This document shows positions 410 to 55,364 of a DNA stretch of 64,000 nt, piece by piece. The position numbers were made by a program, and so were the translations under genes. Below the pieces are notes generated by a model that saw nothing but the letters and a program-made list of their open reading frames with translations, did not search any database and had not been told where the DNA came from. Source of the DNA: Octopus vulgaris (Eukaryota). Location of the stretch: contig OX597819.1 of NCBI GenBank assembly GCA_951406725.2, positions 73,160,001-73,224,000 on the forward strand. The letters are read 5' to 3'. Position 1 is the first letter of the stretch. Each line of letters opens with the position of its first letter.

Positions 410-640
410 CTGACCAGCACCGCTTTTGCCAAAGATAAGAGTTAAAGAAACTCAAAGTCACAAAACCCTAGGTGTTAAGAGTCGCTGATGAGGATTAAGA
501 GGGTCTACATCAAAATCTGAAATTGTGATCCAGCTAGATACACTGGGGACTTACCTCCATTTTGTCAGTCATTAAGACAGTGTTTTTGTGGCTTTTGAGT
601 TGTTTTAACGCTTATTTTTAGCAAAAGTGGTGCTAGTCAG
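410..640. mobile_element. Fold-back element (arms ~410-466 / ~582-640) with a degenerate hammerhead-like core at 481-534; Penelope-like pLTR remnant
   Basis: CTGACCAGCACCGCTTTTGCCAAAGATAAG... is reverse-complementary to ...TTTTAGCAAAAGTGGTGCTAGTCAG; CTGATGA-GGATT..AATCT-GAAA..TC in the spacer. Confidence 0.5.
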
Positions 641-1136
641 TCCACTCTATCACTTGTTTGTGAGTGTGTGTGTGTGTGTGTTTGTACCCCCATCACCACT
701 TGACAACTGGCATTGGTATGTTTACATCCCCATAACTTAGCAGTTCAGCAAACAAGGCTAATAGAATAAGTACCATGCTTTTAAAAAATAAATTCTGGGG
801 TCAGTACATGGCCGCAGTCTAATGAGTGAAACAAGTAAAAGATAAAAGTTAAAAGATAAAAGATAAAAGATAAAAGATCAAAGATCAAAGATATAAACAC
901 ACACACACATGCAAACATGCACACACAAACGCACAGCACACACACAAATACACACACACACAAAAACACACAGACAAACACAGTCACTCGCACGCACACA
1001 AACACACACTCACTCATGCACACACAAACACACACACTCACACACATACACACACATACATACACACACACAAACCCATACACACACAAACACATACATA
1101 CACACACAATCTCATTAATATATTCTTTTATTTACA

Positions 1137-1490
1137 AGCAGAAGTAATGGGGGAGCATCATAACAATGAGTTGAGAGGAATTCTTTGGAGTTTGAATAAT
1201 TCCCCTCTGGAAACAGGGGTGTTTTGTCCAGTATCCTTAAACAACCCTTATTCGGGGACCTTTTGAGCAGGATGGGCTACTTGACTAGATGAAAATTCTA
1301 ACTGGGCCCCACCTGCAAGGTCATGCACTGTTTATCTTGATATGAGATCACTATGCCATTCACATATGGTTGTGATGCATGTGCCTGGAGTACCCTTATC
1401 AGATGGATAGTCATGATGGGTATACTGGGCTTTGTATATTTGTACCCCGGTGTCACTTTGATGGCATGCAGTGCTCTCTCATTCAATAAT
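1137..1490 (+). mobile_element. Family D ~550-bp interspersed repeat ending in (TAA)n, 5'-truncated copy
   Basis: homologous to 2631-3188 (+) and 45063-45625 (-); ends CTCTCTCATTCAATAATAAT. Confidence 0.8.
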
Positions 1491-1514
1491 AATAACAACA
1501 ACAAAAGTAACAAT

Positions 1515-1704
1515 CCGTTCTACTATGGCCGCAAGGCCTATAATTTTGAGTGGAGGGTGTGAATCGATTACACTGACTTGAATGCTCAGCTTGTACTTAT
1601 TTCATTGAAACCCAAAAGAATGACAGGCAAAATTGACTATGATGGAATTTGAACTCAGATTGCAAAGCTCAACAAAATTCCACAGAACATTTTGCTCAGT
1701 GAGC

Positions 1705-1760
<56 letters not shown>

Positions 1761-2610
1761 GTTTCATATTTAGGTATGAGGCCAGTAATTTTAGGGGACG
1801 ATGTAATTCAATTACATTGACTCCAGTACTCAACTAGTACTTGTTTTATCAACCCCAGAAGGATGAAAAACAAGATTGACCTTCATGGCATTTGAAAACA
1901 GAACATGAACAGTCATAAAAAATGCTAAGCATAATTTTTTCCAATGTGCTAATGATTCTGCTAAATCAGAGACTTATCATGATCATCATCATTCTTTAAT
2001 GTCCGCTTTACATGCTGGCATGGGTTGGATGGTTTGACTGAGGACTGGCAAGCCAGAAGGCTGTACTGGGCTCCAGTCTGATCAGACAATGTTTCTACAG
2101 CTGGATGCCCTTCCTAACACCAATCACTCCGAGAGTGTAGTGGGTGCTTTTTACATGCCACCAGCACAGGATCCAGTCGGGTAGCACTGGCAACGACCAC
2201 GCTCACCCAATAATAATACTCCTTTCTTCTACAAGCAAAAAGTCTGAAATTTGAGCGGAGGGTCGATTATATCGACCCTAGTGTGTAGCTGGTACTTATT
2301 TCATCAACCCTGAAAGGATGAAAGGCAAAGTTGACCTCGGCAGAATTTGAACACAAATCGTAAAGACAGACAAAATACCGCTTAGCCTTTTGCCCAGCAT
2401 GCTAACAATTCTGCCAGCCCTTCGCCTTAAATAATAATCTTTTCTACTATAGGCACAAGACCTGAAATTTGGGGGAGGGAAATAGTCGATTACATCGACC
2501 CCAGTACTCAACTGGTACATAATTTATTGACCCTGAAAAGATGAAAGGCAAAGTCGACCTCAGCAGAATTTCACCCGGTATGCTAATGATTCTGCCAGCT
2601 CACCACCTTT
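1515..2610 (-). mobile_element. Cluster of four MetaSINE-core tRNA SINEs (family B) around (TAA)n runs, with a nested family C SINE (~1985-2205)
   Basis: repeated reverse complement of GCCTTTCATCCTTTCGGGGTCGATAAA..AGTACCAG, matching the MetaSINE central domain, plus a GAGTTCAAATT B-box. Confidence 0.85.
1706..1759. repeat. (TAA)n microsatellite
   Basis: direct reading. Confidence 0.97.
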
Positions 2611-2630
2611 CTACCTTAAATAATAATAAT

Positions 2631-3188
2631 AAATGCCCTGATGCAGTACTAGGCAGTGGCCCTCATGGCTTCTGATCTTAACTGATTGGAAGTGTTATCA
2701 TGTACATTGTTTTGTCTTGGTATAAAAAATGGGCTACAGCAAATATTCTGCTCAATACCACAGATTTGCTTGTCAGTTGTTTGACCTTAACCAGTTGAGC
2801 ATGCTCTTTGGTGGCTGACGATATGTGCATCTTTGATCATGAGCAGAAGTAGTTGGAGAGCATCAAAGGAATTCTTTGGGGTTTGTATAACTAACCTCTG
2901 GAAACATAGGTGTCTCATTCAACGTCCTTAAACAACCCTTATTTAGGGACCTTTCAAGCAGCATGGGCTACTTGACCTTAAGAAAATTCAAACTGGGCCC
3001 CACCTGCAAAGTCATGTACTGTTTATTTTGATATGAGATGACCATGTCGCGCACATATGGTTGTGATGCATGTGCCTGGTGTACCTTTATCAGACAGGTC
3101 GTCATGATGGGTATATTGGGCTTTGTATATTTATACTCCAGTGTCACTTTGATGACATGTGCTGCTCTCTCGCTCAATATAATAATAA
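2631..3188 (+). mobile_element. Family D repeat, near full length, flanked on both sides by (TAA)n
   Basis: starts right after TAATAATAAT and ends in CAATATAATAATAA; homologous to the two other copies. Confidence 0.8.
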
Positions 3189-3347
3189 CCCTTTCTACTA
3201 TAGGCACAAAGCCTGAAATTTGGTGGGAGGGGGCTTGTCGATTATATCGATCCCCCCCACCCACTGTTCAATAGGTACTTATTTTACTGAACCCCAAAAT
3301 TTTGAAAGCAAAATTGACTTTGGCATAAATTGAAACCAGAATTTAAA

Positions 3348-3640
3348 TCATCATCATCATCATTTAACGTCTGCTTTCCATGCCTGCATGGGTTGGACAG
3401 TGTGATTGGAGTCTGGCAACCAGAAGGATGCACCAGGCTCCTATCTGATCTGGCAAAGTTTCTACAGCTGGATGCCCTTCCTAATGCCAACTACTCCAAG
3501 AGTGTAGTGGGTGCTTTTTACGTGCCACCAGCACAAGACCAGTCAGGCGGCACTGGCAACGATCATGTTCAAATGGTGCTTTTTATGTACCACTGACATG
3601 GGAGCCAATCAGACAGCATTGGCAATGATCCCACTCTGGC
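3348..3640 (-). mobile_element. Family C SINE with RTE-type 3' end and (GAT)n tail
   Basis: CATCATCAT-TTTAACGTC..CATGGGTTGGAC..TTTCTACAGCTGGATGCCCTTCCTAA; other copies at ~8842, 13505, 18215, 19150, 21330, 22410, 36890, 42215, 50585, 55960, 58190. Confidence 0.8.
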
Positions 3641-3697
3641 ATGCCAATAATTCTGCTACCACCACAATAGTAATGATAGACTCCCTAATCGATGCTT

Positions 3698-4010
3698 GGA
3701 AACCACATATTACTGTGGTAGATAAAGAAAAAAGGGAAAACAAGATTAAAGATATTGCAATACCTGGGGATGAATGTATAGGTGACAAAGAACTAGAAAA
3801 GATTGAAAAATACAAACTACTAAAAGATGAAATTACAAGAATGTGGACTATAAGGAGAGCATCTGACATTTCAGTAGTTGTAGTGGGGCCCAGGGCATTA
3901 ACAACCAAGTTCAAGAAATATGTCAGAGAAATCGGAATTGATATGAGAGCAGAGCAAGCCCAAAAAACTGCTCTGCTGGGGACAGCTTGATTTTGAGATT
4001 GGTACTTGGA
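3698..4010 (+). mobile_element. R4/Dong-clade non-LTR retrotransposon 3' fragment (restriction-like endonuclease domain)
   Basis: KPHITVVDKEK..IKDIAIPGD..EKIEKYKLLKDEI.RMW..VVVGPRA..QKTALLGTA is the RLE C-terminus. Confidence 0.85.
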
Positions 4011-4171
4011 TATTGAATGGCTCCTATGGTAATTAACCAAGTATCAAATCTTATAAAGTATAGAAAGAGACCCTGTGAGACCTCTAACAACAGGCTGCTG
4101 TCCTCTCTCACTGCATCAACCAGAGCAAACAAGACGGAATGTTCTGACAAGTAGAACAACAACAACAACAA

Positions 4172-4560
4172 CAGTGTTAATTGAGAAAGAAAGCAAACGA
4201 TACTGGATCATAGATATAGCATGCCCAGGTGACAACAAGGTATGTGATAATGAAGAAAGAAAAGTTGATAGATATGACAGGTTAGCTTGGGCAGTTAAGC
4301 AGTTGTGGTCACTAGAAAAGGTGGTAGTAGTACCAATAATTGTTGGAGCCCTTGGAACAGTGAGTAAAAATCTCGAGAAGTACATGAAACAAATAGGGGC
4401 TGCAATAAGGGTGGAGCACTTACAGAAAACAGCACTGCTTGGAACTGCTCAAATACTCTGGAAGGTGCTTGAAAAATAAGGGATGTTACCTTAGTTCACT
4501 GGTAGTGAACAGCTGACACTGTAGTACATTTCCAGCGTTAGAAGCTGTGCAAAGGCAATA
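4172..4560 (+). mobile_element. Second R4/Dong-clade RLE 3' fragment, ending in a (TAG)n(TAA)n tail
   Basis: IIDIACPGDNKV..KVDRYDRLAWAVKQLWSLEKVVVVPIIVGALGTV..LQKTALLGTAQILWKVL*. Confidence 0.88.
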
Positions 4561-4614
4561 AATAGTAGTAGTAGTAGTAGTAGTAGTAGTAAATAATAAT
4601 AATAATAATAATAA

Positions 4615-4940
4615 TTACAATATCTCTAGGAATGATAAACAAAAAGGTACAGAAACCTATTTGAAAATGATACCAGGCTTACCATCCTTACAGGAAGTGC
4701 AAAAAGTTGTGTTAACTGGAACGACCCACATACTGAGAAGAGCATTATCGCTGTGAAAACAACATCCATTCATGAATTTATTCATTTATTAATTTTTTGA
4801 TACATATTTTACCTGTGAATTTGTGTGTGTAATCTGGGAAAGCATACAATGAGCTTCTCTACCCTAGGTATACAGAAAACACTCAGTGAGAAATGGAAGA
4901 AATTTTGAAGACAGAAGGAAAAAAAAATAATAATAATAAT
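4615..4940 (+). mobile_element. Third, distinct R4/Dong-like 3' end fragment
   Basis: LGMINKKV..YLKMIPGLPSLQEVQKVVLTGTTHILRRALSL* followed by 3'UTR and A/(TAA)n tail. Confidence 0.7.
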
Positions 4941-5554
4941 GATGATGATTTCAAATTTGGCACAAGGCCAGCAATTTCTGAGGACAGGGTAAGTCGATTA
5001 CATTGACCTTAGTTCTCAACTGGTACTTGTTTTACCAACCCCAAAAGGCTTAGTTGACCTCAATGGAATTTGAACATAGAATGTAAAGATGGACAAAATG
5101 CCTTGAAGCATTTTTCCCAGCACAGTAACGATAACAACCTCAACAACAATGATAATAAATTTTTATTTATTTGCCACAAGGGCAACATATGACGAGGGAC
5201 ATTACAGCAATATCAACAATAAGGATAAATAAATAAACAGAATATTAATTGTGTTATCATGAGGCTTGATAATAACAAGTTTCAAAATATATTATTTATA
5301 ACGCATATATTCTGTAAAACAAGCAAGAAGGACAAAAGAAGAACAGAATAGAAAAATAAAAAGGAAACCACAATATAATAGAAGCATTTAAAAGTACATA
5401 TTTAGAAATAGCTAGTTTTTTTTTTTTTTGCTTGCTGTCTTTTTTCCTTTCCTTTCTTTCCTTCTTTCCTTTCTGAATATGGAATATTCAAGTAGTGAAT
5501 GTTGTGAAAGTATAAGAAAATTAAATAAATAATATTAAATGAAATTAAGTTATT

Positions 5555-5915
5555 GCTGCTACCATCACCACCACCATGATCATCACTTCCACCATCATCA
5601 TCTTCATCATCACCAACACAATCATCACCTCTACAACCTCCACCATTTTCAGCACCATCATCATTGCCTTCATTATAACTGTAATCATTATCAACACCAC
5701 CACTATCATCACTGTAACCATCACTATCACCACCACCTCCATCTTCAACACAATCATCACCGCCACCACCACCACCACTATGACCACCCCAAGGCCTCCT
5801 CCATCACCAGGAAAACAATGATGACCACCACCACCACCACCACCACACCAAGCAGCCTTATCAGCTTCCACTGCTACCAGCAGCAGCAGCAGTAGCAGCA
5901 ACATCAGCAGTAGCC
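5555..5915. repeat. Degenerate (CAC/CAT/CAG)n trinucleotide tract
   Basis: direct reading; produces the spurious poly-His/Thr ORFs. Confidence 0.9.
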
Positions 5916-6595: not shown

Positions 6596-8203
6596 AACAA
6601 GAGCACTCAGAGAGCACAAACCTCTGCCAAGGCAACAGCAATGTCCTCTTAACCTTTAACGAGAGATTAAATAAAATCCTTCAATGAATATCATGAAAAT
6701 TTTTGGCTTTCTCTTCTCTTAAATTCCAGTCTTCCTTTAGTAATCATGTTGTTTTAGATCGATGTATAGAATTATGTATATATGTAAATATATTGTAAAA
6801 TTTTAAAATGTATGTATAATCTCCTAACATAATAATGAGCGTTGTCTTTATATATATATACAACAATCAGTTAGTTGTTGTCATAATAAAACTCAGAGTT
6901 TCGGATGTCTGGGATGAAGCCTGCTGAGATGCTGGAGCAGACTTAAGCCCTGACATCCGAAACTCCAAGTTTTATTATGACAACAACTGATTGTTATATA
7001 TTATATTTATAGATAAATTCCTCTATTTACATAATATCGAGGTCTCATTCATTATTTTGTTTTCATATTATTATTATTAATTTATATATATATATATATT
7101 TGTGTGTGTGTATATATATATAATAGAGCCAGAGTGAGAGGTGAAGGTAGACGAGATAAATGACAAAGAGAGCATCATATGAGTGAGAAAGAAAGGTGTG
7201 ATAAATGAATCACAAAGGAAGGTGTGAGAAAGCCGATGAATGGCGTTTGAAGTGTGAGTATATGTATGAAAGACAGGTATGTTTGCGTGCATGAGAGTGT
7301 GTGTGTACAATGGAAATGGGATGGTAATGTTCAGCGCAGAAAATGTGTGTGCATATGTGTATATGTGTGTACGTGTACAAGATAACTATGTGAAACTTTA
7401 CATATACATGTAAGGTAAAGAAAATATAAAAAATATTTCAGAATCCTTGTCCCATACTGGATTAATCCCCAAATCTAATCAGTTCATGCCAGTTACAAGG
7501 CCAAACATCCCTGAAAGTTTCACCCGCGTCCATCTAGTGGTTCTTGAGATATCTTGTCCACAGACAAACAAACAAACAAACAAACACGATTGAAAACAAT
7601 ACCTTCACCTTTGCTAAGGTAGAAGTAACAAGGGCACTCAGTGAGCACAAACCTCCACCAAGGCAACACCAACGCCCTATCAGTGATTAGCTGGAGAGGA
7701 TTTTTAAAATGAGAACATCTGAAATAAACTCGACTGCGTTCACAAACGAGAATACTAAAAATGAACCCGACTGATCTTAAAAATTAAGTGAAAAAAATGG
7801 AAAAATAATCCAGAATCCTTGTCCAGTACCTGATTGATCCAATGGTAGTCATGGAAAGTGAAGGTAGCTGTAGAAAATTTAGTAACAGTAATAAATGGTT
7901 CATCCTTATCTAATACAAGCCAAAGGTAACAAATTCACCATTCAAAATAGTTACAGCCTAAAGGGAGATAATTGAGAAAGACTTGAAAGTTAAAATAAGA
8001 TTGTAATCATGTAAATTAAATATAATAAATAATCCAGAATCTTTGTCCGGTACCAGATCAATCCCCAAATCTAAGTCACGAGGCAAAACATTCCTGAAAG
8101 TTTCATCCGAATCCATCCATTAGTTCTTGAGATATCTTGTCCATGAACAAACAAACAAATATGACTGAAAGCAATACCTCCACCTTCTCTAAGGCAGAGG
8201 TAA
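6596..8203 (+). mobile_element. Two head-to-tail non-autonomous Helentron-like (HINE) elements (6596-7628, 7627-8203)
   Basis: each starts AACAAG(A/G)GCACTCAG..AAACCTC(T/C)(G/A)CCAAGGC and ends (CAAA)n..AATACCT(C/T)CACCTT..CTAAGG(C/T)AG(A/G)(A/G)GTAA hairpin; reversed partial copy at 54286-54405. Confidence 0.6.
6862..6998. repeat. Short fold-back/palindrome (arms ~6874-6909 / ~6952-6988)
   Basis: GTTGTTGTCATAATAAAACTCAGAGTTTCGGATGTC vs GACATCCGAAACTCCAAGTTTTATTATGACAACAAC. Confidence 0.85.
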
Positions 8204-9189: not shown

Positions 9190-10612
9190 CAACTACAATT
9201 TCCATTTGATATTTATTTTGATGTTGATGTTGATGTACTTGACTCAATAGGTCTCCTCAAGCACAGCAGGTCACCCTACGATCCAAGGTAAGCACAGCAG
9301 GTCGTTCTGCAATTCAAGGTACTTTGGATGGGCTTGGGCTATGCGAAACTGGTGCAGGAAGCAGCCATGAACTCACACTATTTGTCGGGTCTTTGCAGTC
9401 ACAGCATATCTCCAGAGATCTCGGTCCTTCGTCATTACCTCTGTGAGGCCCAACGTTCGAACGTCATGCTTGACTACCTCATCCCGTGTCTACCTCTGCC
9501 CCAGATACCTTCAACCGTTTGGGAGTGGCACTTCTTCACACATCTCTCCTCATCCATCTATAGTACATGACCATACCAGTGCAAATGTCTCTCTTGCACA
9601 CCACATCTGATGCTTCTTATGTCCAGCATTTCTCTCAGGGCACTTACACTCTGTCGTGTGTGCACACTGACATTACACATCCAGCGGATCATACTAGCTT
9701 CATTTCTTTCAAGCCTACGCATGTCCTTTGCAGTCACAGCCCATGTTTCACCACCGTGAAGCATTGCATGTTGCACACATGCATCATACAGTCTACCTTT
9801 TACTCTGAGCGAGAGACCCTTTGTCACCAGTAGGGGTAGGAGCTTTCTAAATTTTGCCCAGGCTATTCGTATTCTAGTGGTGACACTCTCTGAGCATCCA
9901 CCTCCACTACTAACTTGGTCACTTAGGTAGCGGAAACTCTCAACTACTTCTAGCTTCTCCCCTGGAGTGTGATGGAATCTGTTTTCTGAGTATCTGTGGT
10001 GTCTATTGCCCCTGTGCATCTGCTACACATGAAAGCTATCTTCTCGGTTAATTTTCCTTTGATGTTGCTGCACCTCTTATATGTCTATAGCTTACACTGG
10101 GTACATCTTATGGAGTTTCTACCTACACCTTTTCTACAGATCAAGCAGGGCCACCTGCCCGAGGGTGTGTGTGATGAGTTCGCCTTTCTGCTTACTATAA
10201 CTTTAGTCTTTGCTACTCTAAGGTCCTTTGATTCTAAACCTAGCTTCCACACCCAAAATTTCTTTTCTAGTTCCGGTAATGATTCTACTATGAGGGCCAG
10301 GTCATCAGCATAGAGGAGCTCCCAGGGGCAACCCGTCTTGAATTCCTCTGTTATTGCCCGGAGGACTATGAAAAGAAGGGGACTAAGGCTGAACCTTGGT
10401 GAACCCCTACTTCTACCCGGAATTCTTCACTATACTCATTGCCAATCCTAACCTTACTAACGGCCTCTTGGTATAGGGCCTGTACAGCCCTTATCAACCA
10501 TTTGTCAATCTCCAGTTTCTGCATTGCCCACGAGATAAGGGACTGGGGGAACCTGTCAAAGGCTTTCTCTAAGTCCACAAAAGCTAAGTAGAGGGTTTAT
10601 CTTTAGCTAGGT
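9190..10612 (-). mobile_element. RTE-clade LINE, 5'-truncated and decayed (RT C-half, PHD-like insert, 3'UTR)
   Basis: DLEKAFDR, VGVHQGSAL, LLYADDL, LEVVESFRYL..RIRIAWAKFRKLLPLL..KGRLYDACV..ETWA; stops and frameshifts present; 3' tail duplicated at ~9010-9100. Confidence 0.92.
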
Positions 10613-15204: not shown

Positions 15205-15236
15205 CACACACACGTGTATGTGTGTATATGTGTATG

Positions 15237-15291
<55 letters not shown>

Positions 15292-26966: not shown

Positions 26967-27079
26967 TACACACATACATACATACATACATACACACACA
27001 CATATATATACACACACATATATATGCACACACACACGCACATGCACACACACACACAACACACACACACATATATATT

Positions 27080-27397
27080 GTTCAAATTTATAGAAAAACA
27101 AAAGATGAAGCTGGTGTATGAACAACAAGCAGGTGTATTAGTTTGATGCTTGAGAAAATAGAAAAGCTTTTACACTTTGAGCCTATGCTCTTCAACAGAA
27201 AGGAATAAGGGAAAATAAATAGAGAGAGAATGAAAAAAAACATATTGAGTTCAATGGGGCAATATGGTGAATGACTGGAAAAAAGTGGTAGAATAAAAGG
27301 GAGATAATAATAAAGGACGGTTCTCGAATTACAAACTAATACACTTGCTTGTTGTTCCTACATCTGTCTTTGTCTTTGTTTTTCTATAAATTTGAAC
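27080..27397. mobile_element. Fold-back element (arms 27080-27145 / 27332-27397) with a degenerate hammerhead core on the minus strand (27167-27202); Penelope-like pLTR remnant
   Basis: GTTCAAATTTATAGAAAAACAAA..AACAACAAGCAGGTGTATTAGTTTG is inverted at 27332-27397; minus strand reads TTT-CTGTTGA-A-GAGC-ATAG-GCTC-AAAG-TG-TA-AAA. Confidence 0.6.
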
Positions 27398-27627
27398 TAT
27401 ATGTTATACGCTCATGTGGTTACTCCAGTTTGATCCTGACTGAACTTCCCACGCTCTTAGATTTGCATATCTTAACCACTTCCAGACCTTTCAGTAGCCC
27501 TCCTTATCCACATACCAGTTTTCCACCCAGTTTAATATTGGATCAGCATACTCTTATGAACTCTACCTTCACATATCTCACTGGCTATTTTTGTACATAT
27601 ATGTGTGTGTGTGTGTGTGTGTGTGTA

Positions 27628-37610: not shown

Positions 37611-38293
37611 TATATAATATCATCATCATTATCATCATTATATAACGTCCACTTTTCATGTTGGCATGGGTTGGATGGTTTGACAAGAGCTGGCAAGCCC
37701 TATATATATATATATATATATATCAAAAAGGTAAAGAAATATCACAAGTGTAAATTTATATTAAAAAATAGAAAGAAATGCTTTGAGAGCTACATTACAT
37801 TCTTTTGTCTTAAAACACAAACTAACTACATTTCTATGCTAAATTCTCCAAGAACTAAAACAGACACACAAATATACACACCTAATTACAAAGTTTTACA
37901 TACTGAACTGAACTCTGAACAATATCCTCCACTTTCCTAAAACAGGTTGAATCTCCCATTACTTTTCAAATAACATCAAAAACAACTAAACCTAGTCACA
38001 CATCTGTTAACCAACTAGCCATTTTACATACTTATGTTTTCTTTTGTGGACCCTAAAAAATAACCTAAGACCTGAAGCTGACCCACCTGAATAGACATAT
38101 TAGATTACAAAGTTTCATACATATGACTGGACTCTGAGCAATAATACAACTATAACTTTATTCAATAAAAACTTCCTATAATATCTTTTCATCAGAACCT
38201 ACCCTATAACCTAACTGTCATTCAACACATCTCCACTTATTCTAGAAAAATGAAACTGAGTGACTATATAAAGCCAAGATGGACTCATTGTAT

Positions 38294-38335
38294 CAGTCCA
38301 ATGAAGGCTAGTAAGCCCAAATTTTGAAGTCACTG
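38294..38335 (+). ncRNA. Degenerate type I hammerhead-like motif
   Basis: CAGT-CCAATGA-A-GGCT-AGTA-AGCC-CAAA-TTTTGAAG-TC-ACTG: helices I and II intact, catalytic core mutated. Confidence 0.4.
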
Positions 38336-38369
38336 TCAACACTATAGTTGTAAATGAATAATATATATC

Positions 38370-38680: not shown

Positions 38681-41384
38681 GGGAAAATGGTAAATGGATG
38701 CTGGCAGTCCCAAAGTCGGACAAATTCAGTTTCTAACTCGCTATCAAACCATTCCTTCTAATCATTCCAAAACAGACAGGTGCAGCTCTTAGCCTTGCCA
38801 GTTCCTGTCAAACCAGCCAATCCATACCAGCATGGAAAATGGACATTAAATGATGATGATGATGATGATTGTCATACCTCCCACACATACACACATCTAC
38901 ACAAATTTGATCTAGTTTTACTAATTTGATATTCTACATCTGTTATGTTGTTATGTTAAAAAAAAATATATTAATCACCAAAATCTGATTCTCTGAAAGC
39001 TCCTAAATCAAACTAAAAAAACATTAAGCTTTAAATGATAAAATGTATGCCCAAACCCTTTGAGACAGAAAGCTTAAATATTTTTAAAAAATCTGATAAT
39101 CTTTATTAGCTTTCCACAAATTCAGTAGTAAGTGACATGGCAGGTATGCTATGTTAGTGTTATATCATTTGTTTCTGAAAGATAATGTCAAACAAATCCA
39201 GGGAAATATTGACATATTATTGATTGTTAGGAAATAATCTGAGAATAAATTTCCTGTCAACAGTCAATGGGCTCAGGTGACAGTCGACACTATTCCAGCT
39301 AAAGTACTGCAGTAACTGGCCTATTAACAGCATGTATACATTAAGTATGATACGTAGATGACTATTTTAATTAAGTATTGTTTCAATTGCGTATACTGGA
39401 TTTTTATTCAACCAGGTGACTGTTTGTAACATCAGCGAATGTTTTTACATTTTCCCTATATCAAAGGCAATAGATGCATGCCTCAGCATGTGACTTGCTG
39501 CAAGTATGCATCACTAAAATGCATCTGGCACTCTTGCCAGTTTCTTCTTGGATGATTTTTATCTCTCTTTGATAGTTATTTTGTTTTCAATACAAAAAGG
39601 ACATAGGAAATATTATCTCAGGACAAATACTGCCATGGCTCTCCCATTGAGGGTGTGTATATGTTTAGTATGATACATAGATGACTATTTTGATTAAATA
39701 TTACCTCAATTGCATATACTGGATTTTTGTTTTGAATTACAGGTTTTAACTCCATGACAATGGGTTTTTATCAGGCAACTAGGTTGCACTAACGGTAATC
39801 ATCTCACCTGAGATCAGCAATTAGCACACAACAATGGTTTGGCGTATATTTACGTCAACTGCTTTAAAGCTTGCACTGTTTATTTATGTAAACTGTTCAT
39901 CACTATGAGGACTGTAAATTCAACAAGACTGGCATGGCTGGATGTGACTGTAAGTTCCGTGATAGACCAGAAGAATTTGCAGAACATGTGGGGTGCTAGA
40001 TTCCATTGTTTGAAAACATAAGGACACAGATTGTGTCATATAGCCAGCTGGAGACAATGTCTCCTGGGGCTAAATTACAGCAATATTCGTCCTAAACCAG
40101 GACTGCCATGTTATGTTGGTAAACAATCTTTACTACAAAGTACTGTTGCTGAATCTCACATTGTGAGATTTAAAAATGGATGAATTTGATTGGTCAGTCA
40201 TAATGGAAATGGTAGTGTAACCACCAGAACTGCTGCTTTTATGCTGTTATGGTGATAAAGTCTCGGACTGAGTTGGAAATATTTACATGAAGAGTCTAAC
40301 AAATCTATCAGATTCCTTGAAATTTGCAAGGTGGCCTCTATTATCGATTCTGTGAATGATAGCAGATATTTATATCAACTGGTAGACAAACAGACACAAA
40401 ACCTCAGCAGATAGGGCTGTGTATATTTTTGTCATCTGATTCAAAGCGAGTACACAGCACATGTAAATTTATATCAACCAATGTTATGGGTTTAATTCCC
40501 ATATGTTAATTCACCAGTGCCATGGGGTTATGTCTAAGTAATATTTTTTAAATGGGCTGGTTATGCGACACTGGTGTAGGCTATGGCTGTGATCTCACTT
40601 TCCTTGCTGGGTCTTCTCAATCACAGCATATCTCCGAAGGTCTCGGTCTTTTGTCATTGCCTCTGTGAGGCCCAATGTCTTCCTGGGTCTCTATGATCAA
40701 CATTGTAGATTGAGCAGGCAAACACCCTTATGATTGAGTTTTATGAATGTCTACTTCTGAGAGGAACAAGAAGGTTTTTCATGTTGAGCAAACGAGAAAT
40801 GAACAGCCTGCATTTGAAAGCAGTAACTGTTCCATGAAACCTCATCATCATCATTGCGATTGACATCACTGTGTGTCAACCTCACCATGCTATTGTCCTC
40901 ATTGTGATTATCTTCATTTTCATCACTATCTCTATCATCTTCAGAGTCATCATCACCTTCACCATAGCCATTGTTGTTGTCACCATCACCATTATCATAG
41001 TCATCACTGCTAGCACCACCGCCTTTACTGTTATCATCCTACTCCTCCTCCTCCCCCTCATCGTTGTCACCATCATCACTGTCATTCACAGAAGTATTTT
41101 AAATTTGTTTTTATGATGATGGAATGGGTTGGACATTTTTTTTCTGGGGCAATATTTTACGATCATCAAATACCCTTTCTATCACCAACCATTCTTGTCA
41201 TCTCTCACAACACACAAAGATGCTGTGGATTAATTCTAAAATTAGAATAAGCACTCTATACACCATCTGACGAAACATTGATGTAACACACAGACAATAT
41301 CTTTAGAAAAATCTATAGTAACTGCTGTGAGCTGTGTTTGAACTGATATAACAATGAGGTATTGAATTGATGATGTGGGAGAAT

Positions 41385-42153: not shown

Positions 42154-42192
<39 letters not shown>

Positions 42193-45625: not shown

Positions 45626-45764
45626 GACAGGGGGAGTTGCACCAAGATGGAAAACACTAATTCTTTTACTTGCATCAGCCATTTGGCTGCAACCATGCTG
45701 GAGCACTGCATATTATTATTATTTACTATTTTCCACACACTAGAGTGGTGCCTGGCACAATTAA

Positions 45765-45985
45765 CCCTTTCGTTACCGTATTTATTTTGAGATGCTCTGT
45801 GTTTCTTTCAATTACTTTAAATATAAGAAAGAATTTAGTAAAATAACTTAGTTATCATTCAGCTAGTGTTAGGAACATAAATTGTGACTACAGTTTGGTG
45901 GAAGATTTTAATTCAAAACTTATAAAAACAAGACATTTGTACTACAAAGCCAGAGCCGGTTTCAGCTGGGTTGGTAACAAAAGGG
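45765..45985. mobile_element. piggyBac-type MITE with TTAA target-site duplication
   Basis: TTAA|CCCTTTCGTTACC...GGTAACAAAAGGG|TTAA; related ends at ~21292-21810 and ~55438. Confidence 0.85.
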
Positions 45986-46980
45986 TTAATAAAACCAAAG
46001 ACAAATGGATTTGTGTCAGTTTTGGTCTTTTCCGCTTGGAGTTCAAATTCTGCCAAAGTTGACTCAGCAAATCTAAATTGAACCCTTCTACCAAAATTTC
46101 CTGTTAATTTATGTTTCAAGCACCAACTTAATAATGGCAAAGTTATTTTCCTAAATTCCTCATAATTTTAGAAATTAAGAGATTCAAAGACACTCTTTTA
46201 AATGCATTTATACCAATTCTTTGTTTCAAAGAAAATCTGAATACATCTGTAGAAAACCTGGCATTTGTAGATTCTAAAGAAATGCTTAGTTCTTCCTCAT
46301 AACAATGTCTTTAGACTGAGTCCTACTGCCAAGCACTGTTAGAAATTCAAGTTACATTTCAAGACGAGAAACAAATGCTTCTTTATTAGAATTGATGTAT
46401 TTCATCAAGATAATATATCCTGCCCATTATTGCTAACACAATCCCATTTACTTAGTAAATTGTCGATCCTTTGGGTGTAAAATTATTCAGGTTTTGATGC
46501 AAAGAAACACTAGATAACATTTTCAACCATTTCACAATTTATTGTTTTCCCTCAATGTTGCAAGGATCTGAAAAAAAAAAAAAAATGATAGCCAGATAGT
46601 GCAAAGTCTGGTGAGGAAGATGAAGCAGAACTTCTATGTATTTAGTGTCATAATCTTTTCCTGGGTGACTCGAGCAATATGTAATCTTGCATTATCATGT
46701 CAGAGCAACGTCCCTTCAAGATTGATTAATGATGGGTGCTTTTAACAATATTTCTCCACATTAAGTATTTTGGAAATAATATATTTCTAAATCTCTCAAA
46801 GAGATTTATGCAGTAGCAGCATGATAAAGTGATAGCATGTTGCCAACTTAATGTGACAGTCCCATAAAAGGGAAGAATGCTACTGTTATTTAGCCCTAGG
46901 AAACATTTCCAGTTGGCCATGACACATTTTCTGTGTCCTTATGCTTTCAAAGGGGGAGATAAGCACCTCCATCCAGTATC

Positions 46981-47019
46981 CAGAGACTAGTTTCAGAGTC
47001 ATTGCTCATCATCAGTCTG
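46981..47019 (-). ncRNA. Minimal type I hammerhead ribozyme motif, inverted copy
   Basis: exact reverse complement of 47134-47172. Confidence 0.75.
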
Positions 47020-47133
47020 AAGTAGCATGGCTTGCTAGTTGTCAATGCCTATCCACCTTTGAATGTATTTCACTTGAAATATATATGTTTTCAAAGGTGA
47101 ATAGGCATTGACAGCTAGCAAGCTATGCTACTT

Positions 47134-47172
47134 CAGACTGATGATGAGCAATGACTCTGAAACTAGTCTCTG
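47134..47172 (+). ncRNA. Minimal type I hammerhead ribozyme motif (predicted cleavage GUC^ after 47168)
   Basis: CAGA-CTGATGA-TGAG-CAATGA-CTCT-GAAA-CTAG-TC-TCTG: intact core, 4-bp helix I, palindromic helix III (ACTAGT). Confidence 0.75.
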
Positions 47173-50100
47173 GTTGCTGGCTTAGCTGGGCGGAGGTGCT
47201 TGTCTCCACTTTGAAAACACGACACAGGAAATGTGTCAAGTCCAACAATAAATGGTGTTTCCTAGGGCTAAATAACCATAGCATTCTTCCCTTTCATGGG
47301 ACTGTCACATTAAGTATTTTGTTTAGCACTTCATAATAGATTACACCCTTCACATCCCATCAAACCCACAACATAACTGTTTTTTAGTGTATTCCTGGTT
47401 CAGGATGGATTCTTCATTTTCATTGGGTGCTAACCATTGTCATTTTCACAAGATATGATTATAGAGAATTGATATTTCATTGCTAATCAGGAAAGGCTCA
47501 GTAGCAATTCTTTAAACCGAGAAGCAGTCAGATGAAAGGGACCCATCAATCAAGTTGAGACATTTTTCTTAGTTGATGAAGGTATTTGATTAAAATGTGA
47601 CTTCAATTAAATTGTTTTGTTGACTCTTTTTGAGATTAAATATATTTTACCTGTCTTTAGTGCTCCCTTTTACTGTTGCCATTATAGCAGTATTACAATG
47701 TTAATAATAATCCTTGCTACTGCAGGCACAAGGCCTGAAATTTTGGGGAAGAAGGCTAGTGTATCACTGGTACCTATTTTATCCATATCAAAAGGATGAA
47801 AGGTAAAGTAGGTTTCAGCAGAATTTGAAAAGGTGGGCACTGTTAATCCATTAACGAAAAAGTTAAATTCGATAATCATTTAATTCTTTAAAAATGTAAC
47901 GGAAGTTATTTGATAAACTATTAACATTAATTTTTATTATAGAAAAAAAAACAATAAATCAGTTTTTGCTCTAAAACTACCTAAAGACACCTTTAAAAAG
48001 TGCCAAAACCATAAAATCTGTTTACTTTAATTCAATTGAAGTTACCTGATGTTGACTTGAGTTAACAGAAATTAATTAGTCCGAGAATGATTTCCAAAGT
48101 TAACTTATTAAAGTTAAATCATTAATGAAAATGTTAACTTCTTAAATTAATGGTTTGGTCCCTAGGTTTGATAATTTGAACTTGGAATGTAAAGACAGGT
48201 GAAATGTTACTAATCATTTTGTGAGGTATACTAGCAATTTCATCATCTTGCCACCTTAATACTAATAATAATGGTGATGCTAAAAATTATGATAAAAAAT
48301 AAATTACAATAATAATTTTTCTGATATTTTAAAAGGATTTCTTAAATCAAAATAACATTTACATTGAAAAGAAGGAAAACTGGTTCTGATGATTTGAAAG
48401 TTTGGTTTTTGTAATCAATTTCCAAATTATATAAATCTTCGTCCTGCCATTCTTACATATTCAATAAACCTATAATTTAACATTTTTACTCAGACATATT
48501 TAATCATTCAATCTGTTTGTAAGCATTAAAATACTACTCAAATACAAACAGAAAACAATGTTTTAAACAAAAATACATTTTTTAAAGAAGCTTTATTTGC
48601 AAAAAAAAAAAATTGACATGAACAAACAAAAAATAATGAAATGAGGTTGTTTTTAATTTCATCAGATTTTAAAAATAAAAGATAATCAATTTGGTGAGAT
48701 GCTGACATGGTTATGTGGTTAAGAAATTCATTTCATGACCATGTGGTTTTGGGTTCAGTCTCACAATGTGGCATGAAAGTCAAGCGATTTCTACTATAAC
48801 CCTGGATCAATCAAACCCTTTTGTGTGGATTTAGTAGACAGAAACTGAAAGAAGCCCATCGGATCATCATCATCACCACATGCGAGTGTGTGAATGAGTT
48901 TGTATTTTCTTCATTTACATGTCTGTTTGTCAGCTTATTGTAAACAATAGCCTTACTATTCCTACTGCTTGCTTGCAGCCCACCCCACTTGAAACCATGT
49001 CCAGCTTCCTGACATGTGTAATTGTTTATATTTTTTACCTGTTCAGTCATTAGACTGTGGCCATTCTGGGGCACTGTCTGGAAGAATTTTAGTTGAATGA
49101 ATCAACTCTGGGACTTGTTTTTTTTTATGAACCCTGGTACTTATTTTATCAGTTTCTTTTGCCAAACTGCTAGATTACAGGGACATAAACACACCAACAG
49201 TGTGGCAGATAAAAACACACATAGATGCATATACAAGTTTCTTTCAGTTTCTGTCTACCAAAACCACTCACAATGCTTTGGTCAGCCCAAGGCTAGTCAC
49301 ACAGTGGGACTGAACTTGGAACCAAGTGGTTGGAAAGTAAACTTCTTACCACACAACCACACCTGCACCCATGTAAACAAAAGGTTCATTCATACAGTAG
49401 TTTGTTTCAGGTTCTCTGCATAAGACATGTCCAGGAGAATTCTTACCTCAGCTGAAACATATAGGGGATGGCAAAAAAGAAAGGGATCCAGCTGTTGGAA
49501 AACTCTGACCCAACATACTCTCGTTTGATCCATGGAAAAGTAGATGTTAAAACAATGATGATGATGATGCCAGACAGCACATCTTCATCATAAACCCGTG
49601 GACATTTCAGTCTTTGAGTCGTAAAACTCATGACCGGTTACTCAGTTTCCCTTGTGTATAAGTGAGTGAGATCAGAACTTCCCACTGGAATGGTACGCCA
49701 GTCCACCATAGGGTTACTCACACACAGCTGATTGGCCAGGAGAAACATGAAATGTAGGGCGATGAGCTGGCAGAATCATTAGCATGCCGGGCGAAATGCT
49801 TAGCGGTATTTCGTCTGCCGCTACATTCTGAGTTCAAATTCCATTGAGGTTGACTTTGCCTTTTATCCTTTTGGGGTCAATTAAATAAGTATCAGTTACG
49901 CAATGGGGTCACTATAATCAACTTAATCTGTTTGTCTCCTCTGTGTGTAGCCCCTTGTGGGCAATAAAGAAATAAGGAACATAAAGTGTTTTGCACAAGA
50001 ACACAACACACTGTCCAGTCTGGGAGTTGAAACCATGATCTTGAGTACCACTTAGTCACATACCTAATGGTTAGCACAGCAATCTGTCAGTAGCTTAGTT

Positions 50101-53100
50101 TCTACAATAAGCTGATTGAGAGAGACCCTAGTCAATCCCTCTTTACAAGACATCATGGCTGATTCTGAAACAAAACAAAAAAAAGGAAGGGTCAACTGCA
50201 ATTCTTGGCAGTTCCATTATTTATTGTTCTTCAAATGAGGATAAAGACAAAGATAATGCCAATGGTTGTTTGAACTAAGAATATGAAGTTGGAACAATTA
50301 CAAGATTTTGTCTGATCCACTAACAATTCTGCCAATCAATCTGGAGCTAAACAATACTAATCTGTTATGCTATTGTCTCAAACTATTAACAAGTAAATTT
50401 GGAAATGAATGCAATGAAAATGACTAAAATGTAATTTGGTATAGATGGCTACCTGTACATACAGGAAGACACCTAATCCTGTTCCTTTATACCTCTAATC
50501 TCTCATTAACTGGCACAAAGCCACCTCCCCACTCACTACAACTCCCTCCTCCCAGATGAGAGGGGATTTTGTCTTGCAAGATGCTTGGTAACCCTGTTGG
50601 TGCTGGTGCCACATAAAAAGCATCCAGTACACTTTGTAAAGTGGTTGGCATTAGAAAGTGCATCCAGCCATAGGAAACATGCCAAAACAGACAACTGGAA
50701 TCTGGTGCAGCCCCCACCCTTACTAGCTCCAATCAAACTGTCCAACCCATGCCAAAATGGAAAACAGACATTAAATGATGTTGATGCGCATGCATAGAAT
50801 GGTAGTACGTAAGCCCCCAGCTAATGAAGACCTGTAATTATTTTTCTTCCAAGTGGTATCATGGTACCATTTATTTCATTAGGTTTAAGTGAAAATTAAA
50901 TAGTAACATTTGGCTTTCTCAGACTTAAACTAATGAGATTATATGCAGTATCCAATCAGAAAGGTCAGCACAAAGATTCAGTTGATTTATATCATCATTG
51001 AAAGCTTTTCAAATGTCGGATAACACTTTTTTCTCTTTTACAAGTTATTCTCTGTTAAAGCATAAATCAATAACATAAGTACCTTCTCCCTATAGAACCA
51101 TCATCACCATCATACATGCATGGGCCTGAATTTATTGAGGTAGATTTTTTTATAGCAAGATACCCTTCCTCTAGCCAACCACCACCCGTTTCCAAGCAAG
51201 ATAATAGTTCCCCATAGCCAGACATGTTCTCACAAATGACAGTGCTTGTATAACACTCATTTGTAACTATCACATGAAACCAAGACAAAGAAACATAAAA
51301 GAGCACACACACACACACACAATGGATTTCTTTCAGTTTTTGTCTAAGCCATGAGTGCAATTCCTGGTGGTGTGTTGACCTTGAGCAAGACACTTATTTC
51401 ACATTGGTAAAAATGAGTTGTACCTGTAATTTAAAACAGCCAGTCTTGTTGCACTCTGTGTCATGCTGAATCCCCCTGAGAACTACATTAAGGGTACATG
51501 TGTCTGTGGAGCACTCAGCCACTTGCACCTTAATTTCACAGATCAACTGTAGCCTTTGTCGCTGTAGCCAGTGGATTTCTTAGTCCACCAAATCCACACA
51601 AAAAGGCATTGGTTGACCCGGATCTATAGTAGAAGACACTTGCCCAAGGTACCATGCAGTGGAACTGAACCTGGAACCATGTGGTTGGGAAGCTAGCTGC
51701 TTAACTACACAACTATATCTGTAGCTGGAGTAGTGGAATTTTCAGAGACAATGGAAGAACAGGTAAAATTTCTTGTATTAATCTTTTGTTAGATGCTGGT
51801 AGCAATGTCTCAATTCAGTAGAACCTTGCTTTGATTATTTCTGTGCTGAAATGTATTATGAGATGAAATCTTGCCAGAAGCTGACTTGCATTTCATATTT
51901 TCAGGTTTCAATAAAATAATTACCAAGAATTTTAAAATATTCACCTCCCAACCACATGGTTTTTGGGTTCAATCCCACAACACAGCACCCTGGGGGAAGT
52001 GTCTTATACCAGTGATTTCCAAACTTTTTCAGTCTGCCACTCGCTTGGTTCTAAGGCCACATTCCTAGTACCCACCCCTTCACAGACCATTTTCTGCAGC
52101 AAATTCAAAATAACAATACTTCACTTCACCCTTTACTTTGTTTTTCTTTTTACATCCATTGCCCCATTTTTCTTCACACTCCACCCGATCTTCTCAACCC
52201 CTACCCCACCAGTGGGGGATACCACCCACTTTGGGAACCACTGTCTTATACTATAGCCCCAGGTCAACCAATGCCTAGTAAGTGAATTTGGTAGACAGAA
52301 AATATTTGTGAAGCCTGACATATATGTGTGTCTTTGTGCTGTACCCCACCTCTTGACAACTGATGTTCTTAGTGGTTTGCCAAAAGGGACTGATAGAATA
52401 AGTACTAAACTCTTCAAGGTAGTGCTTCAGCATGGCCACATTCCAATGACTAAAATAGTTAAAAAGCAAAATACAAAAGACCTAAGATTGGAAAGGTACT
52501 GAAAATATGAAAATGAGGAGCTGTTTGAGAACATAATCCAGTTTTAAAGATCAAATGATCTTACAATTCTGTATTTTTGTTTGACAACTCAAGATTAAAA
52601 CATCTTCATATGATCACAAATTTAACATTTTTCTGTGTGTGTATTTATATAGATACATATTGATAAATACTCACACACACACACAACTGGTGAGATGTTC
52701 CAACTGACAATAAAATTAAGATAATTCAAAATGTCAATTATCTAATAGCACTATGACATTTAAATTGATATTTTCAATCAGTTCAATAAAAATGGAAATA
52801 TTGTAAATGGTTATTTAAATATATTTTTTTCCTTCTCCTTCACTATAAGCAGCAACACTGCAAATAGCATCAAAATGAAGATTTCAAAAATATGAACTTA
52901 TGATTTTGATTTTTTTAAAAAACATTTCATTTAATTCAATTTTTTAAAAAAATATTTACTTCTCTTCTGCTAATAGAAGTTGGATGTTTGTCCAAATTTG
53001 GATATTTTGCATGATGAATAATTAACAGTTCGCCAGTTTGACAGCTAGATTTCTTTCCTCAGTCAACCATAATAAAATGGTTATTTTTTTTCAACTGGTT

Positions 53101-54999
53101 TGCTTTAGCAGCAAGCAATCTGATGTGTAACTACTTGATAGGACTTTAAACCTATGATGATGGTTAAGCAATCAACTATTCACCAGATTGCCAAAATGGT
53201 ATCAGGTTTAGATATTCAAAGATGTTGGAGGGCAGAATTGGTAGAACAACAAACAAAATTCTATGAAATTTGGTTTTTTTATTCCTACCTTGCCATTCTG
53301 ATTCTCTGTTTATAGTTTCTCTTATATTCACCTTCTTGTATGCTCAGGGTACACCCCGACACCTCATTAACATCATTTTCTCTTTTTCCAGCTGGGGTAG
53401 CCATATACCTACCCCACATACTTTGATCTCTTGACACCTGGCATAAGGCTACCTTCCTCAATATACTACATCACTCAGTTGAATGGGGCCTTAGCTTACA
53501 AGTTCCCTGGTGGACCTCACTAGTGCCACTACTATGAAAGAAATACTCACCTTTCCTAATGCATATACATATGCGTTAGACTGTGTGTGTGCACACGCAT
53601 GCATGCATCTGTATTTGTACCTCTCCAAAATCAATGTACAACTGGTGACATTGTTGTCATTTCCCCTGCAAACAAATTGTTTGTTGGTACTGTACCTTCA
53701 AAGAGTGTGAAATAAGAAATCTCTTACTTAAAAAACAAGTAAAGGTTACCAACAGGAAGAGCATGCCAGCTGTAAAACAATGCCCCAATATATTTACCTA
53801 ACCTGTACAGGCATCAAAAATAGAGACAAAAATAAATAACAAAGAAATGAAAGTTAGTACTGCCACACTTTGTACAAAAAATTTTAAGGTAAAATTTAGA
53901 AAAAATAATGCATTGCTTACCCTCTTTTATAAACCATACTCACATATGTTTACTAAAAGAAAACACTTAAAGTCTACACTGTCTAGAAAATTCTTAAAAA
54001 TTCTAACTTTAATACATTTTCATCAAATTCTGGTTTTTGTGTTTCTATTATTATTGACGATTTCAACTAGAGAAAACTAATTTAATCCACTGCATGGTAA
54101 CAATAACACTGTGAGTTAGCATTCCCTCTTTATCTTTTCTCTCTCTCATGATGCTATTTTCTATAGTCATATCAGTAAAAACATTTCTTCAAATTATAAG
54201 ATTAATCTACTGACAGCTGAATTATGCTACTTTCAGTATTCCTTTAGTTTTGTTTTTTTCTTCAAACAAACAAAAAGCTATTTTATTACCTCTGCCTTAG
54301 CGAAGGCAAAGGTATTGTTTTCAGATGTGTTTGTTTGTCCGAAGACAAGATATATCAAGAACCACTGGATGGATTCAGACAAAACTTTCAGGGATGTTTG
54401 GCCTCATCTACCCCTCATTTATATAGGGTGCTAAGACTTTTTTCTCAATGGGAAGGAAAAAAAATTTCATTCTTAAAAAAGCAAACTAACCCATATTTTA
54501 TTGAACTACAATGACTTTCAATTAATTTTGATGATAATGAAGAATTGAAAATATAAATGTTATTATTAACCCATAAAGCACTGGGACTTGCACATAGCAT
54601 GGACTGCTGAGCACATTTTATGAAAATGAGATTACCATGCACAAAAAAAAAAAAGTTAAAATATCTTCTTAGTACATATATGTGTGTCTGTGTTTGTCCC
54701 CTATCACAGTGCTGGTGTGTTTACATCCCTGTAACCTAGCAGTTCAGCAAAAGAGACCAATAAAATAATGCTTAAATGAAAAGGAAAAAAAAGCACTGAG
54801 GTCAATTCATTCGATCAAAATTCTCAAGGCGGTGCCCCAGTAACAAGGTAAAGGAATAAAAATTATATTTCTTTTAAAAATTATAAAAAAAGAAACAAAT
54901 TACTTAAACCAGTAATAACCATTTTTTCGGGGCATTTCATTGTTAATTGTGCTATCTCTGTCTAAATTCAAAAAGGTAAAATATTTTAAAATGATTTTT

Positions 55000-55364
55000 T
55001 ACATTATCTACAAAGGACAGATACATGTCCTCACCTTGTTTGTTGTTGTCACAACATTTCGGCTGATGTACTTTCCAGCCTTCATCAAGTGTTCTGGTGG
55101 AATTTCAAACCCAACCCTTTATTTGACTAATGGGGTTACTCTGTTCTCATTCCAAGGATTTTTTCTTTTACTGATATTATTGTTTATTTTTCTTCCAAAA
55201 AGAATACCTAAGGAATGAGAACAGAGTACCCCATTAGTCAAATAAAGGGTTGGGTTTGAAATTGCACCAGAACACCTGATGAAGGCTGGAGAGTAAATCA
55301 GCCGAAATGTTGTGGTAACAACAAACAAGGTGGGGACACCTATCCATCCATTGTAAATAATGTA
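55000..55364. mobile_element. Fold-back element (arms ~55000-55158 / ~55207-55364) with two inverted hammerhead motifs; Penelope-like pLTR
   Basis: arms complementary over ~155 bp (e.g. AAACCCAACCCTTTATTTGACTAATGGG / CCCATTAGTCAAATAAAGGGTTGGGTTT). Confidence 0.85.
55273..55314 (+). ncRNA. Minimal type I hammerhead motif
   Basis: CAC-CTGATGA-A-GGCTG-GAGAGTAAAT-CAGCC-GAAA-TG-TT-GTG; the inverted copy at 55050-55091 has TTGATGA. Confidence 0.65.

What the first reader, a model, noticed from the sequence alone, without database searches (positions are those of the whole stretch)
410..55364. Recurring class of hammerhead-bearing fold-back elements from several unrelated families
Seen: inverted-repeat elements with hammerhead-like cores at 410-640, 27080-27397, 46846-47315 and 55000-55364, a half-core palindrome at 6862-6998, and lone degenerate motifs at 38294-38335 and ~49600-49640. 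They share no visible primary sequence, and none has a recognisable Penelope ORF in the window. Inference: octopus introns may be densely seeded with ORF-less ribozyme hairpins (inverted pLTR remnants or retrozyme-like non-autonomous elements) that repeat annotation would label as MITEs or unknown. This is the best candidate here for an under-described system.
Basis: partly seen in the sequence, partly recalled or inferred. Interest (0 to 1): 0.7.

Follow-up and report, generated by a model that had tools for sequence, protein, structure and literature searches.

The report
Penelope retrotransposon stumps and retrozymes
The hairpin-shaped repeats carry predicted self-cutting RNA motifs and were likely written by Penelope-type jumping genes: three are the cut-down ends of protein-coding elements and two are non-coding units that likely hitch a ride ("retrozymes"), so they are octopus members of known kinds.

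Summary
Six of the seven motifs belong to repeat families with a type I hammerhead; ~49600 does not. The fold-backs are not MITEs. Each is one insertion: a 5'-truncated copy plus an inverted copy, with two fixed 3' ends 15-70 nt apart. This is the published Penelope-like element (PLE) pattern.
Families B (27061-27402), D (54994-55397) and E (~6860-7079) run upstream into RT/GIY-YIG ORF remnants elsewhere in the genome, so they are truncated coding PLEs. Families A (333-663) and C (46773-47315) are ORF-less, circularly permuted 336- and 348-nt units, often longer than one unit: retrozyme-like.
Self-cleavage and circular RNA are untested. RNA reads look like read-through, and in C and D the hairpin is predicted to block the ribozyme. 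Intronic location was not established.
Side result: ORF1-only zinc-knuckle elements insert about 25 nt before these hammerheads. Of 30 copies found without reference to any hammerhead, 21 are directly followed by one.
The scan has already reported this architecture (19 notes) and this targeting on other DNA. New members of known kinds.

The parts
333..465 (-). Family A, inverted arm (unit 53-186, ends at the long 3' end, includes the one-sided tail)
464..663 (+). Family A, sense arm (unit 270 through the cut site to 130; short 3' end); ORF-less 336-nt circularly permuted family
485..530 (+). Type I hammerhead core of A, in the unpaired loop; one mismatch in helix I in this copy
6860..6925 (-). 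Family E, inverted arm truncated inside the ribozyme (only the GAAA half); left boundary approximate (alignment runs to 6842 in TA-rich sequence)
6921..7079 (+). Family E, sense arm with damaged core (6921-6971, 5' strand of helix I lost) and tail; 3' end of an ORF-bearing PLE family
27061..27314 (-). Family B, long arm with degenerate core at 27171-27198; 3' end of an ORF-bearing PLE family
27332..27402 (+). Family B, short inverted arm without ribozyme
37870..38368 (+). Family F, old single copy with degenerate hammerhead at 38298-38331; no ORF link found
39994..40177 (+).
46773..47084 (-). Family C, left arm (unit 243 through the cut site to 223; long end with tail), intact core 46985-47015
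47060..47315 (+). Family C, right arm (unit 240 to 150), intact core 47138-47168; ORF-less 348-nt circularly permuted family
46757..46772 (+). Left copy of a 16-nt direct repeat (right copy 47306-47321, partly overlapping the element): likely target-site duplication
   Evidence: sequence
54994..55185 (-). Family D, left arm (short 3' end), core 55053-55088 with a C3U change
55197..55397 (+). Family D, right arm (long 3' end), intact minimal core 55276-55311; 3' end of an RT + endonuclease PLE family
49580..49665 (.). Start of an unrelated repeat; not a hammerhead

Best explanation
Each fold-back is one insertion made of a 5'-truncated copy and an inverted copy of the same hammerhead-bearing repeat end, and it was likely written by a Penelope-like element's reverse transcriptase and endonuclease. 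Shown: B, D and E are 3' ends of families that carry RT/GIY-YIG ORF remnants upstream; A and C are ORF-less 336- and 348-nt circularly permuted units. Inferred: the enzyme starts cDNA at two fixed sites near the RNA 3' region, one per target strand, and stops at random. That would give head-to-head arms, a tail on one arm and, for C, 9-14-nt target duplications. Inferred: A and C are retrozymes, cut from tandem transcripts by the hammerhead, circularised and copied round the circle. This would explain copies that cross the cut site and exceed one unit. The hairpin is a by-product and is predicted to block the ribozyme when both arms carry it.
For: 3' ends fall in two narrow classes in A, B, C and D and are seen by eye in E. 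In C, 18 of 24 inverted pairs join one short and one long end, and 5' junctions all differ; in A, 9 of 17 pairs do. A shared flank word of >=9 nt occurs in 9 of 24 C pairs against 5 of 552 mismatched pairs. D lies on the same strand downstream of the ORF in 10 of 15 ORF-selected loci, one being the query; RVT_1 E 7.7e-9. B reaches an ORF in 7 of 25 loci and follows a 388-aa frame in L204. E reaches an ORF piece in 6 of 30 loci. A and C: majority paths repeat at 336 and 348 nt; copies longer than one unit in 12 of 29 and 11 of 48 pattern-selected loci; no contiguous PLE ORF. A helix I shows C-G 13, U-A 15, U-G 6, C-A 2 among 41 copies scored (copies are related, so this is probably one event). 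Extended helix I is predicted for C and A. The same layout is in PMC3846280 and PMC8557442 (passages) and PMC4209133 (parts 1-2 of 4).
Against: GIY-YIG Pfam hits are below the gathering score (E 0.005 and 0.0087), and four shorter pieces gave no relevant hit. Clade names rest on recalled motifs, not on a tree. Two direct cores one unit apart, the template needed to release a monomer, were seen in 0 of 48 C loci and 1 of 29 A loci, plus L093 and L097. RNA reads on a C copy came from both strands, 71-77% ran on into unlike sequence, and none piled up at the cut site. No autonomous partner of A or C was identified. B mostly has U at core position 6 (CUGAUGA in 3 of 26 copies), so its activity is doubtful.
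Confidence: 0.8

Rival explanations
1. All families, A and C included, are just pLTR fragments of autonomous PLEs; the longer-than-unit copies come from partial tandems and no circular RNA is involved.
For: True for B, D and E. Flanks examined were only 1.5-2.5 kb and the protein queries covered three PLE types. No circular RNA evidence.
Against: Upstream of the A and C ribozymes the sequence returns to the same unit. Free 5' flanks (26 for C, 12 for A) share nothing at the junction except the zinc-knuckle inserts and one 33-nt match.
Confidence: 0.12
2. The fold-backs are MITE-like or fold-back DNA elements amplified as whole hairpins.
For: Long near-perfect arms; several loci have similar total length, but those were selected by similarity to the window copy.
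Against: Only 24 of 48 C and 17 of 29 A loci are inverted. Junctions differ at every locus, and the two outer ends are systematically unequal.
Confidence: 0.03
3. The hairpins are host-selected regulatory RNAs (self-cleaving intron elements, dsRNA or ADAR substrates).
For: Family C sequence is present in RNA reads from both strands, and the predicted hairpins are very stable.
Against: Copies are 80-95% identical to their family with ordinary decay, and several cores are broken. Helix II probability is 0.000 inside the C and D hairpins. No conservation or editing test was possible.
Confidence: 0.05

Closest known systems
EN+ Penelope-like elements with inverted 5' pLTR and tail (Arkhipova 2013, PMC3846280; Craig 2021, PMC8557442; passages read)
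   Same: 5' truncation, head-to-head inverted copy, tail on one end, target duplications of about 8-10 nt, microsatellite bias in some families (E 23 of 25, B 12 of 21 and A 10 of 21 long 3' ends, against C 1 of 23 and D 0 of 15).
   Different: Tails here are about 15-70 nt rather than 30-40. D carries a tRNA-like stretch between the stop codon and the ribozyme.
Minimal hammerheads of PLEs (Cervera and de la Pena 2014, PMC4209133; parts 1-2 of 4 read)
   Same: B and D have the extra base after A9 and a palindromic minimal helix III. The paper already reports pairs 100-700 bp apart on opposite strands and attributes most single motifs to truncated PLEs.
   Different: The B majority core is CUGU(C/U)GA and F often has C at position 4; neither variant was seen in the parts read (supplements not read).
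Metazoan non-LTR retrozymes (Cervera and de la Pena 2020, PMC7229834, part 1 of 3 of the Results, the Discussion and passages read; Li, Clavereau and Pollet 2026, bioRxiv 10.64898/2026.07.22.740005, parts 1-3 of 5 read)
   Same: A and C: unit of about 340 nt, no ORF, type I hammerhead with long helix I. C has a U.U pair at the base of helix II and a short capped helix III, as described for axolotl HHR_Amex2. PLEs are the proposed mobiliser.
   Different: Mostly dispersed 0.5-1.8-unit insertions with inverted arms, not long arrays; cleavage and circles untested. 'Octopus' and 'cephalopod' do not occur in PMC7229834.
Target-specific Tx1-clade LINEs and HAL1 ORF1-only derivatives (PMC4640811, PMC5753468; passages read)
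   Same: For the side finding: fixed insertion site in another repeat, 11-16-nt duplications, tandem piling, a single zinc-knuckle ORF.
   Different: The target is the outer end of helix I of hammerhead repeats. No ORF2 partner was found, so Tx1 membership is unproven.

Membership tests
EN+ Penelope-like element (families B, D, E) | Single ORF with RT and C-terminal GIY-YIG upstream of the terminal repeat | tested here: met
   Met at family level, not in the window copies: (RVT_1 passes the cut-off for D; GIY-YIG is sub-threshold for B and E; RT not seen for E)
EN+ Penelope-like element (families B, D, E) | Type I hammerhead in the pLTR | tested here: met
   the B core deviates at position 6
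EN+ Penelope-like element (families B, D, E) | 5' truncation, inverted 5' copy, one-sided tail | tested here: met
EN+ Penelope-like element (families B, D, E) | RT phylogeny places the family in a named clade (Poseidon, Neptune, Nematis) | not tested
   Clade labels come from recalled motifs only
EN+ Penelope-like element (families A, C) | RT-EN ORF contiguous with the repeat | tested here: not met
   0 of 48 C and 0 of 29 A loci; nearby remnants at L087, L100, L109 and L177 are separate insertions
Non-LTR retrozyme (families A, C) | Non-coding unit of 150-450 nt with a type I hammerhead | tested here: met
   336 and 348 nt; extended helix I predicted
Non-LTR retrozyme (families A, C) | Tandem copies with two ribozymes in direct orientation | tested here: inconclusive
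   A: L093, L097, L237. C: 0 of 48, although 11 of 48 exceed one unit
Non-LTR retrozyme (families A, C) | Self-cleavage in vitro | not testable with these tools
   needs transcription assays
Non-LTR retrozyme (families A, C) | Accumulates as monomeric linear and circular RNA | tested here: inconclusive
   (C only): standard cDNA libraries, about 6% of each run read, no start or end pile-up
MITE / fold-back DNA transposon | Copies share both termini and one internal junction | tested here: not met
tRNA-derived SINE (family D) | tRNA head at the 5' end of a non-coding element | tested here: not met
   The tRNA-like stretch lies between the ORF end and the ribozyme in ORF-bearing copies L207, L209 and L210; no Rfam tRNA hit. 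A SINE-like sub-population is not excluded.
Tx1-clade target-specific LINE / HAL1 (side finding) | Fixed target with target-site duplication | tested here: met
Tx1-clade target-specific LINE / HAL1 (side finding) | ORF2 (APE + RT) of the Tx1 clade, in cis or in a partner | tested here: inconclusive
   none in 25 + 16 loci examined; ORF1 matches only zf-CCHC

The most novel reading that the evidence does not exclude
Octopus hosts a three-tier parasite system. PLE enzymes copy circular retrozyme RNAs (A, C and relatives) round the circle. A lineage of ORF1-only LINE derivatives inserts at the outer end of the retrozyme's helix I, and the resulting chimeras are re-mobilised as cargo from the retrozyme's own 3' ends.
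Probability: 0.35. Interest if true: 0.6.

Novelty: new member of a known kind. Interest (0 to 1): 0.3.

Why it matters
As found, it corrects annotation: octopus hairpins that look like MITEs are PLE insertion scars, and repeat libraries should model A and C as circles with two 3' ends. Octopus offers coding PLE ends and non-coding retrozyme-like units with the same insertion footprint side by side. That is direct structural support for the proposed but unproven PLE mobilisation of retrozymes. If the targeting-plus-cargo reading holds, it adds a LINE-derived parasite that homes on ribozyme repeats.

Tried and rejected
Rfam scan: no hammerhead model among the matches shown. ARAGORN: no tRNA in the window. 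The ~49600 motif was rejected as a hammerhead. Other short-range inverted repeats (14 catalogued) are not hammerhead elements as far as seen: 59040-59278 and 45796-46190 were read and look like neighbouring copies of other common repeats; the rest were not inspected. PLE ORF remnants near A loci L087, L100, L109 and L177 were checked and are separate insertions. The shared sequence upstream of some C copies was first suspected to be the autonomous parent; it is a zinc-knuckle ORF1-only insert with its own duplication. My first covariation count had a parsing fault and was redone. Same-strand C pairs 1.6-2.8 kb apart do not flank a PLE ORF. Sequencing runs: no RNA holder listed on record. A>G and T>C differences cannot be read as editing without DNA of the same animal. 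Whether the elements lie in introns stays open, because no read data cover the host gene. F: no ORF found upstream. Searches that found no paper describing octopus retrozymes or hammerhead-targeting LINEs: (open-access library only; Repbase and Dfam not available; bioRxiv supplements closed, and they may list further species).

Full report
Observation. The window is G000:C6:73160001-73224000 of a 2.8-Gb genome. A protein read from this genome is labelled Octopus vulgaris by its source. Fold-backs exist at the C, D, B and E sites, and A's arms appear when it is mapped on its family unit. A strict type I hammerhead descriptor finds 3 sites, all in C and D, against 0.1 +/- 0.3 in 30 shuffles. Dropping helix I adds A (5 against 0.8 +/- 0.65). 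At two mismatches the descriptor is uninformative (20 against 14.1), so the degenerate motifs had to be judged through their families. Rfam shows no hammerhead hit.

Families. Each element is a high-copy repeat. First-look candidates numbered 911 (A), 3363 (B), 3162 (C), 4069 (D), 896 (E) and 142 (F); these are not copy numbers. An exact 31-nt C core occurs 114 times against 0 for the reversed control. The A core with up to 2 mismatches occurs 78 times against 0. Aligned copies show complete type I hammerheads with unrelated stems in A, B, C, D, E and F. In A one helix I pair alternates between C-G and U-A: 13 and 15, with 6 U-G and 2 C-A, among 41 copies scored; copies are related, so this is probably one compensatory event. 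The ~49600 motif belongs to another repeat whose 4 homologues lack the core.

The fold-back is an insertion scar. Among loci chosen by the ribozyme core alone, 24 of 48 (C) and 17 of 29 (A) have a head-to-head inverted partner. The 5' ends are scattered and junctions differ at every locus. The 3' ends fall in two classes: C near unit 170 and 226, A near 135 and 189, D near +55 and +86 from the cut site, B near +100 and +116. In C, 18 of 24 pairs join one short and one long end; in A, 9 of 17, the others having one end outside both classes. Nine of 24 C pairs share a flank word of 9-14 nt, against 5 of 552 mismatched pairs. The window's C copy has a 16-nt direct repeat at 46757-46772 and 47306-47321. 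This matches the inverted pLTR, optional tail and 8-10-nt duplications described for PLEs (PMC3846280 passages; PMC8557442 passages). Opposite-strand hammerhead pairs 100-700 bp apart were already noted in PMC4209133.

Three families are ends of coding PLEs. D lies downstream of an RT plus endonuclease ORF on the same strand in 10 of 15 ORF-selected loci, one being the query locus; RVT_1 scores E 7.7e-9. B reaches ORF remnants in 7 of 25 loci, some hits short, and follows a 388-aa frame with a weak GIY-YIG hit in L204. E reaches a GIY-YIG-like frame in 6 of 30 loci (E 0.0087). By recalled motifs these resemble the Poseidon, Neptune and Nematis clades; no tree was built. E's 'half-core palindrome' is a copy truncated inside the ribozyme. 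F shares 400-850 nt upstream among some copies, but no ORF was found.

Two families are ORF-less circles. For A and C the sequence upstream of the ribozyme is the unit's own 3' part, with periods of 336 and 348 nt. Colinear copies longer than one unit occur in 12 of 29 and 11 of 48 loci, and insertions end 130-230 nt past the cut site, not at it. Copying therefore crossed the cleavage junction, which needs a circular or an uncleaved multimeric template (inference). No PLE ORF is contiguous with any of these loci. Both have a predicted extended helix I, as canonical retrozyme hammerheads do (PMC7229834). Against activity: direct ribozyme dimers were 0 of 48 for C and 1 of 29 for A, plus L093 and L097. 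Reads from three RNA runs on a C copy (149-252 reads each, about 6% of each run read) came from both strands, 71-77% ran on into other sequence, and there was no start or end pile-up. That fits read-through of embedded copies, and such libraries may miss small circles. Folding predicts helix II probability 0.000 inside the C and D hairpins, against 0.99 for D alone, 0.27 or 0.01 for C alone, and 0.19 for A in its loop. A bioRxiv preprint argues that animal retrozymes derive from PLE pLTRs (10.64898/2026.07.22.740005).

Side finding, outside the window. Some C copies are interrupted at unit 293-304 by 1.5-2.2-kb elements with a single zinc-knuckle ORF (zf-CCHC E 9e-4, below cut-off) and 11-16-nt duplications. 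Searching with the insert's 3' end alone gave 30 loci. Twelve are followed directly by C, 9 by other hammerhead families, 8 by another such insert after the same motif, and 1 by a partial tandem and then C. This tally is by eye; the relaxed descriptor called 19, including one false hit, against 36 of 600 control windows. Six of 16 more diverged relatives also end shortly before a hammerhead core, and no ORF2 was seen. Truncated inserts without upstream C sequence (L154, L160, L188) and an inverted pair with insert sequence in both arms (L193) suggest that chimeras are re-mobilised from C's ends (inference, and later deletion is an alternative). Target-specific LINEs that insert into transposons and ORF1-only HAL1 elements are known (PMC4640811, PMC5753468 passages). 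The scan noted this targeting earlier. The window's own C copy is not interrupted.

Verdict. A real and dense set of hammerhead-bearing PLE-type insertions: three coding-element stumps and two retrozyme-like families, plus one old single copy. The architecture is in print, and 19 earlier scan notes hold the same terms. New members of known kinds; interest 0.3.

Noticed in passing
L146, L184, L187, L288-L342 (e.g. G000:C4:73894001-73897303): ORF1-only zinc-knuckle elements of several lineages insert about 17-25 nt before hammerhead cores of family C and at least four other hammerhead families, with 11-16-nt duplications and tandem piling; no ORF2 partner found.
   Followed up: partly
L207:5610-5694; L209:3411-3494; L210:5928-6009: Family D carries a tRNA-like stretch (A/B-box-like by recalled pattern) between the ORF stop and the hammerhead; no Rfam tRNA hit. 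It might act as a Pol III promoter in the pLTR.
   Followed up: partly
window 63832-63999 (+): Open frame resembling the start of an HMG-box protein (recalled motif, not searched); possibly the host or neighbouring gene.
   Followed up: no
window 39994-40177 (+): Truncated relic of the C-related hammerhead family H2, without the ribozyme.
   Followed up: partly
window 3508-4476 (+) and 9561-10596 (-): Decayed LINE-type ORF remnants (restriction-endonuclease-like and RTE-like C-termini by recalled motifs).
   Followed up: no
family B (L061-L085); family F (L215-L229): Non-standard core positions at family level: B mostly CUGU(C/U)GA, F often C at position 4. Activity unknown.
   Followed up: partly
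family C tail, unit 172-226 (window 46773-46830): The stretch between the two fixed 3' ends holds two palindromes, a possible recognition signal for the mobilising enzyme.
   Followed up: no
window 1500-58200, many copies (families D9-D19): A very abundant SINE-like family; its 3' tail, seen at L028, resembles the tail of the zinc-knuckle inserts, suggesting a shared LINE partner.
   Followed up: no
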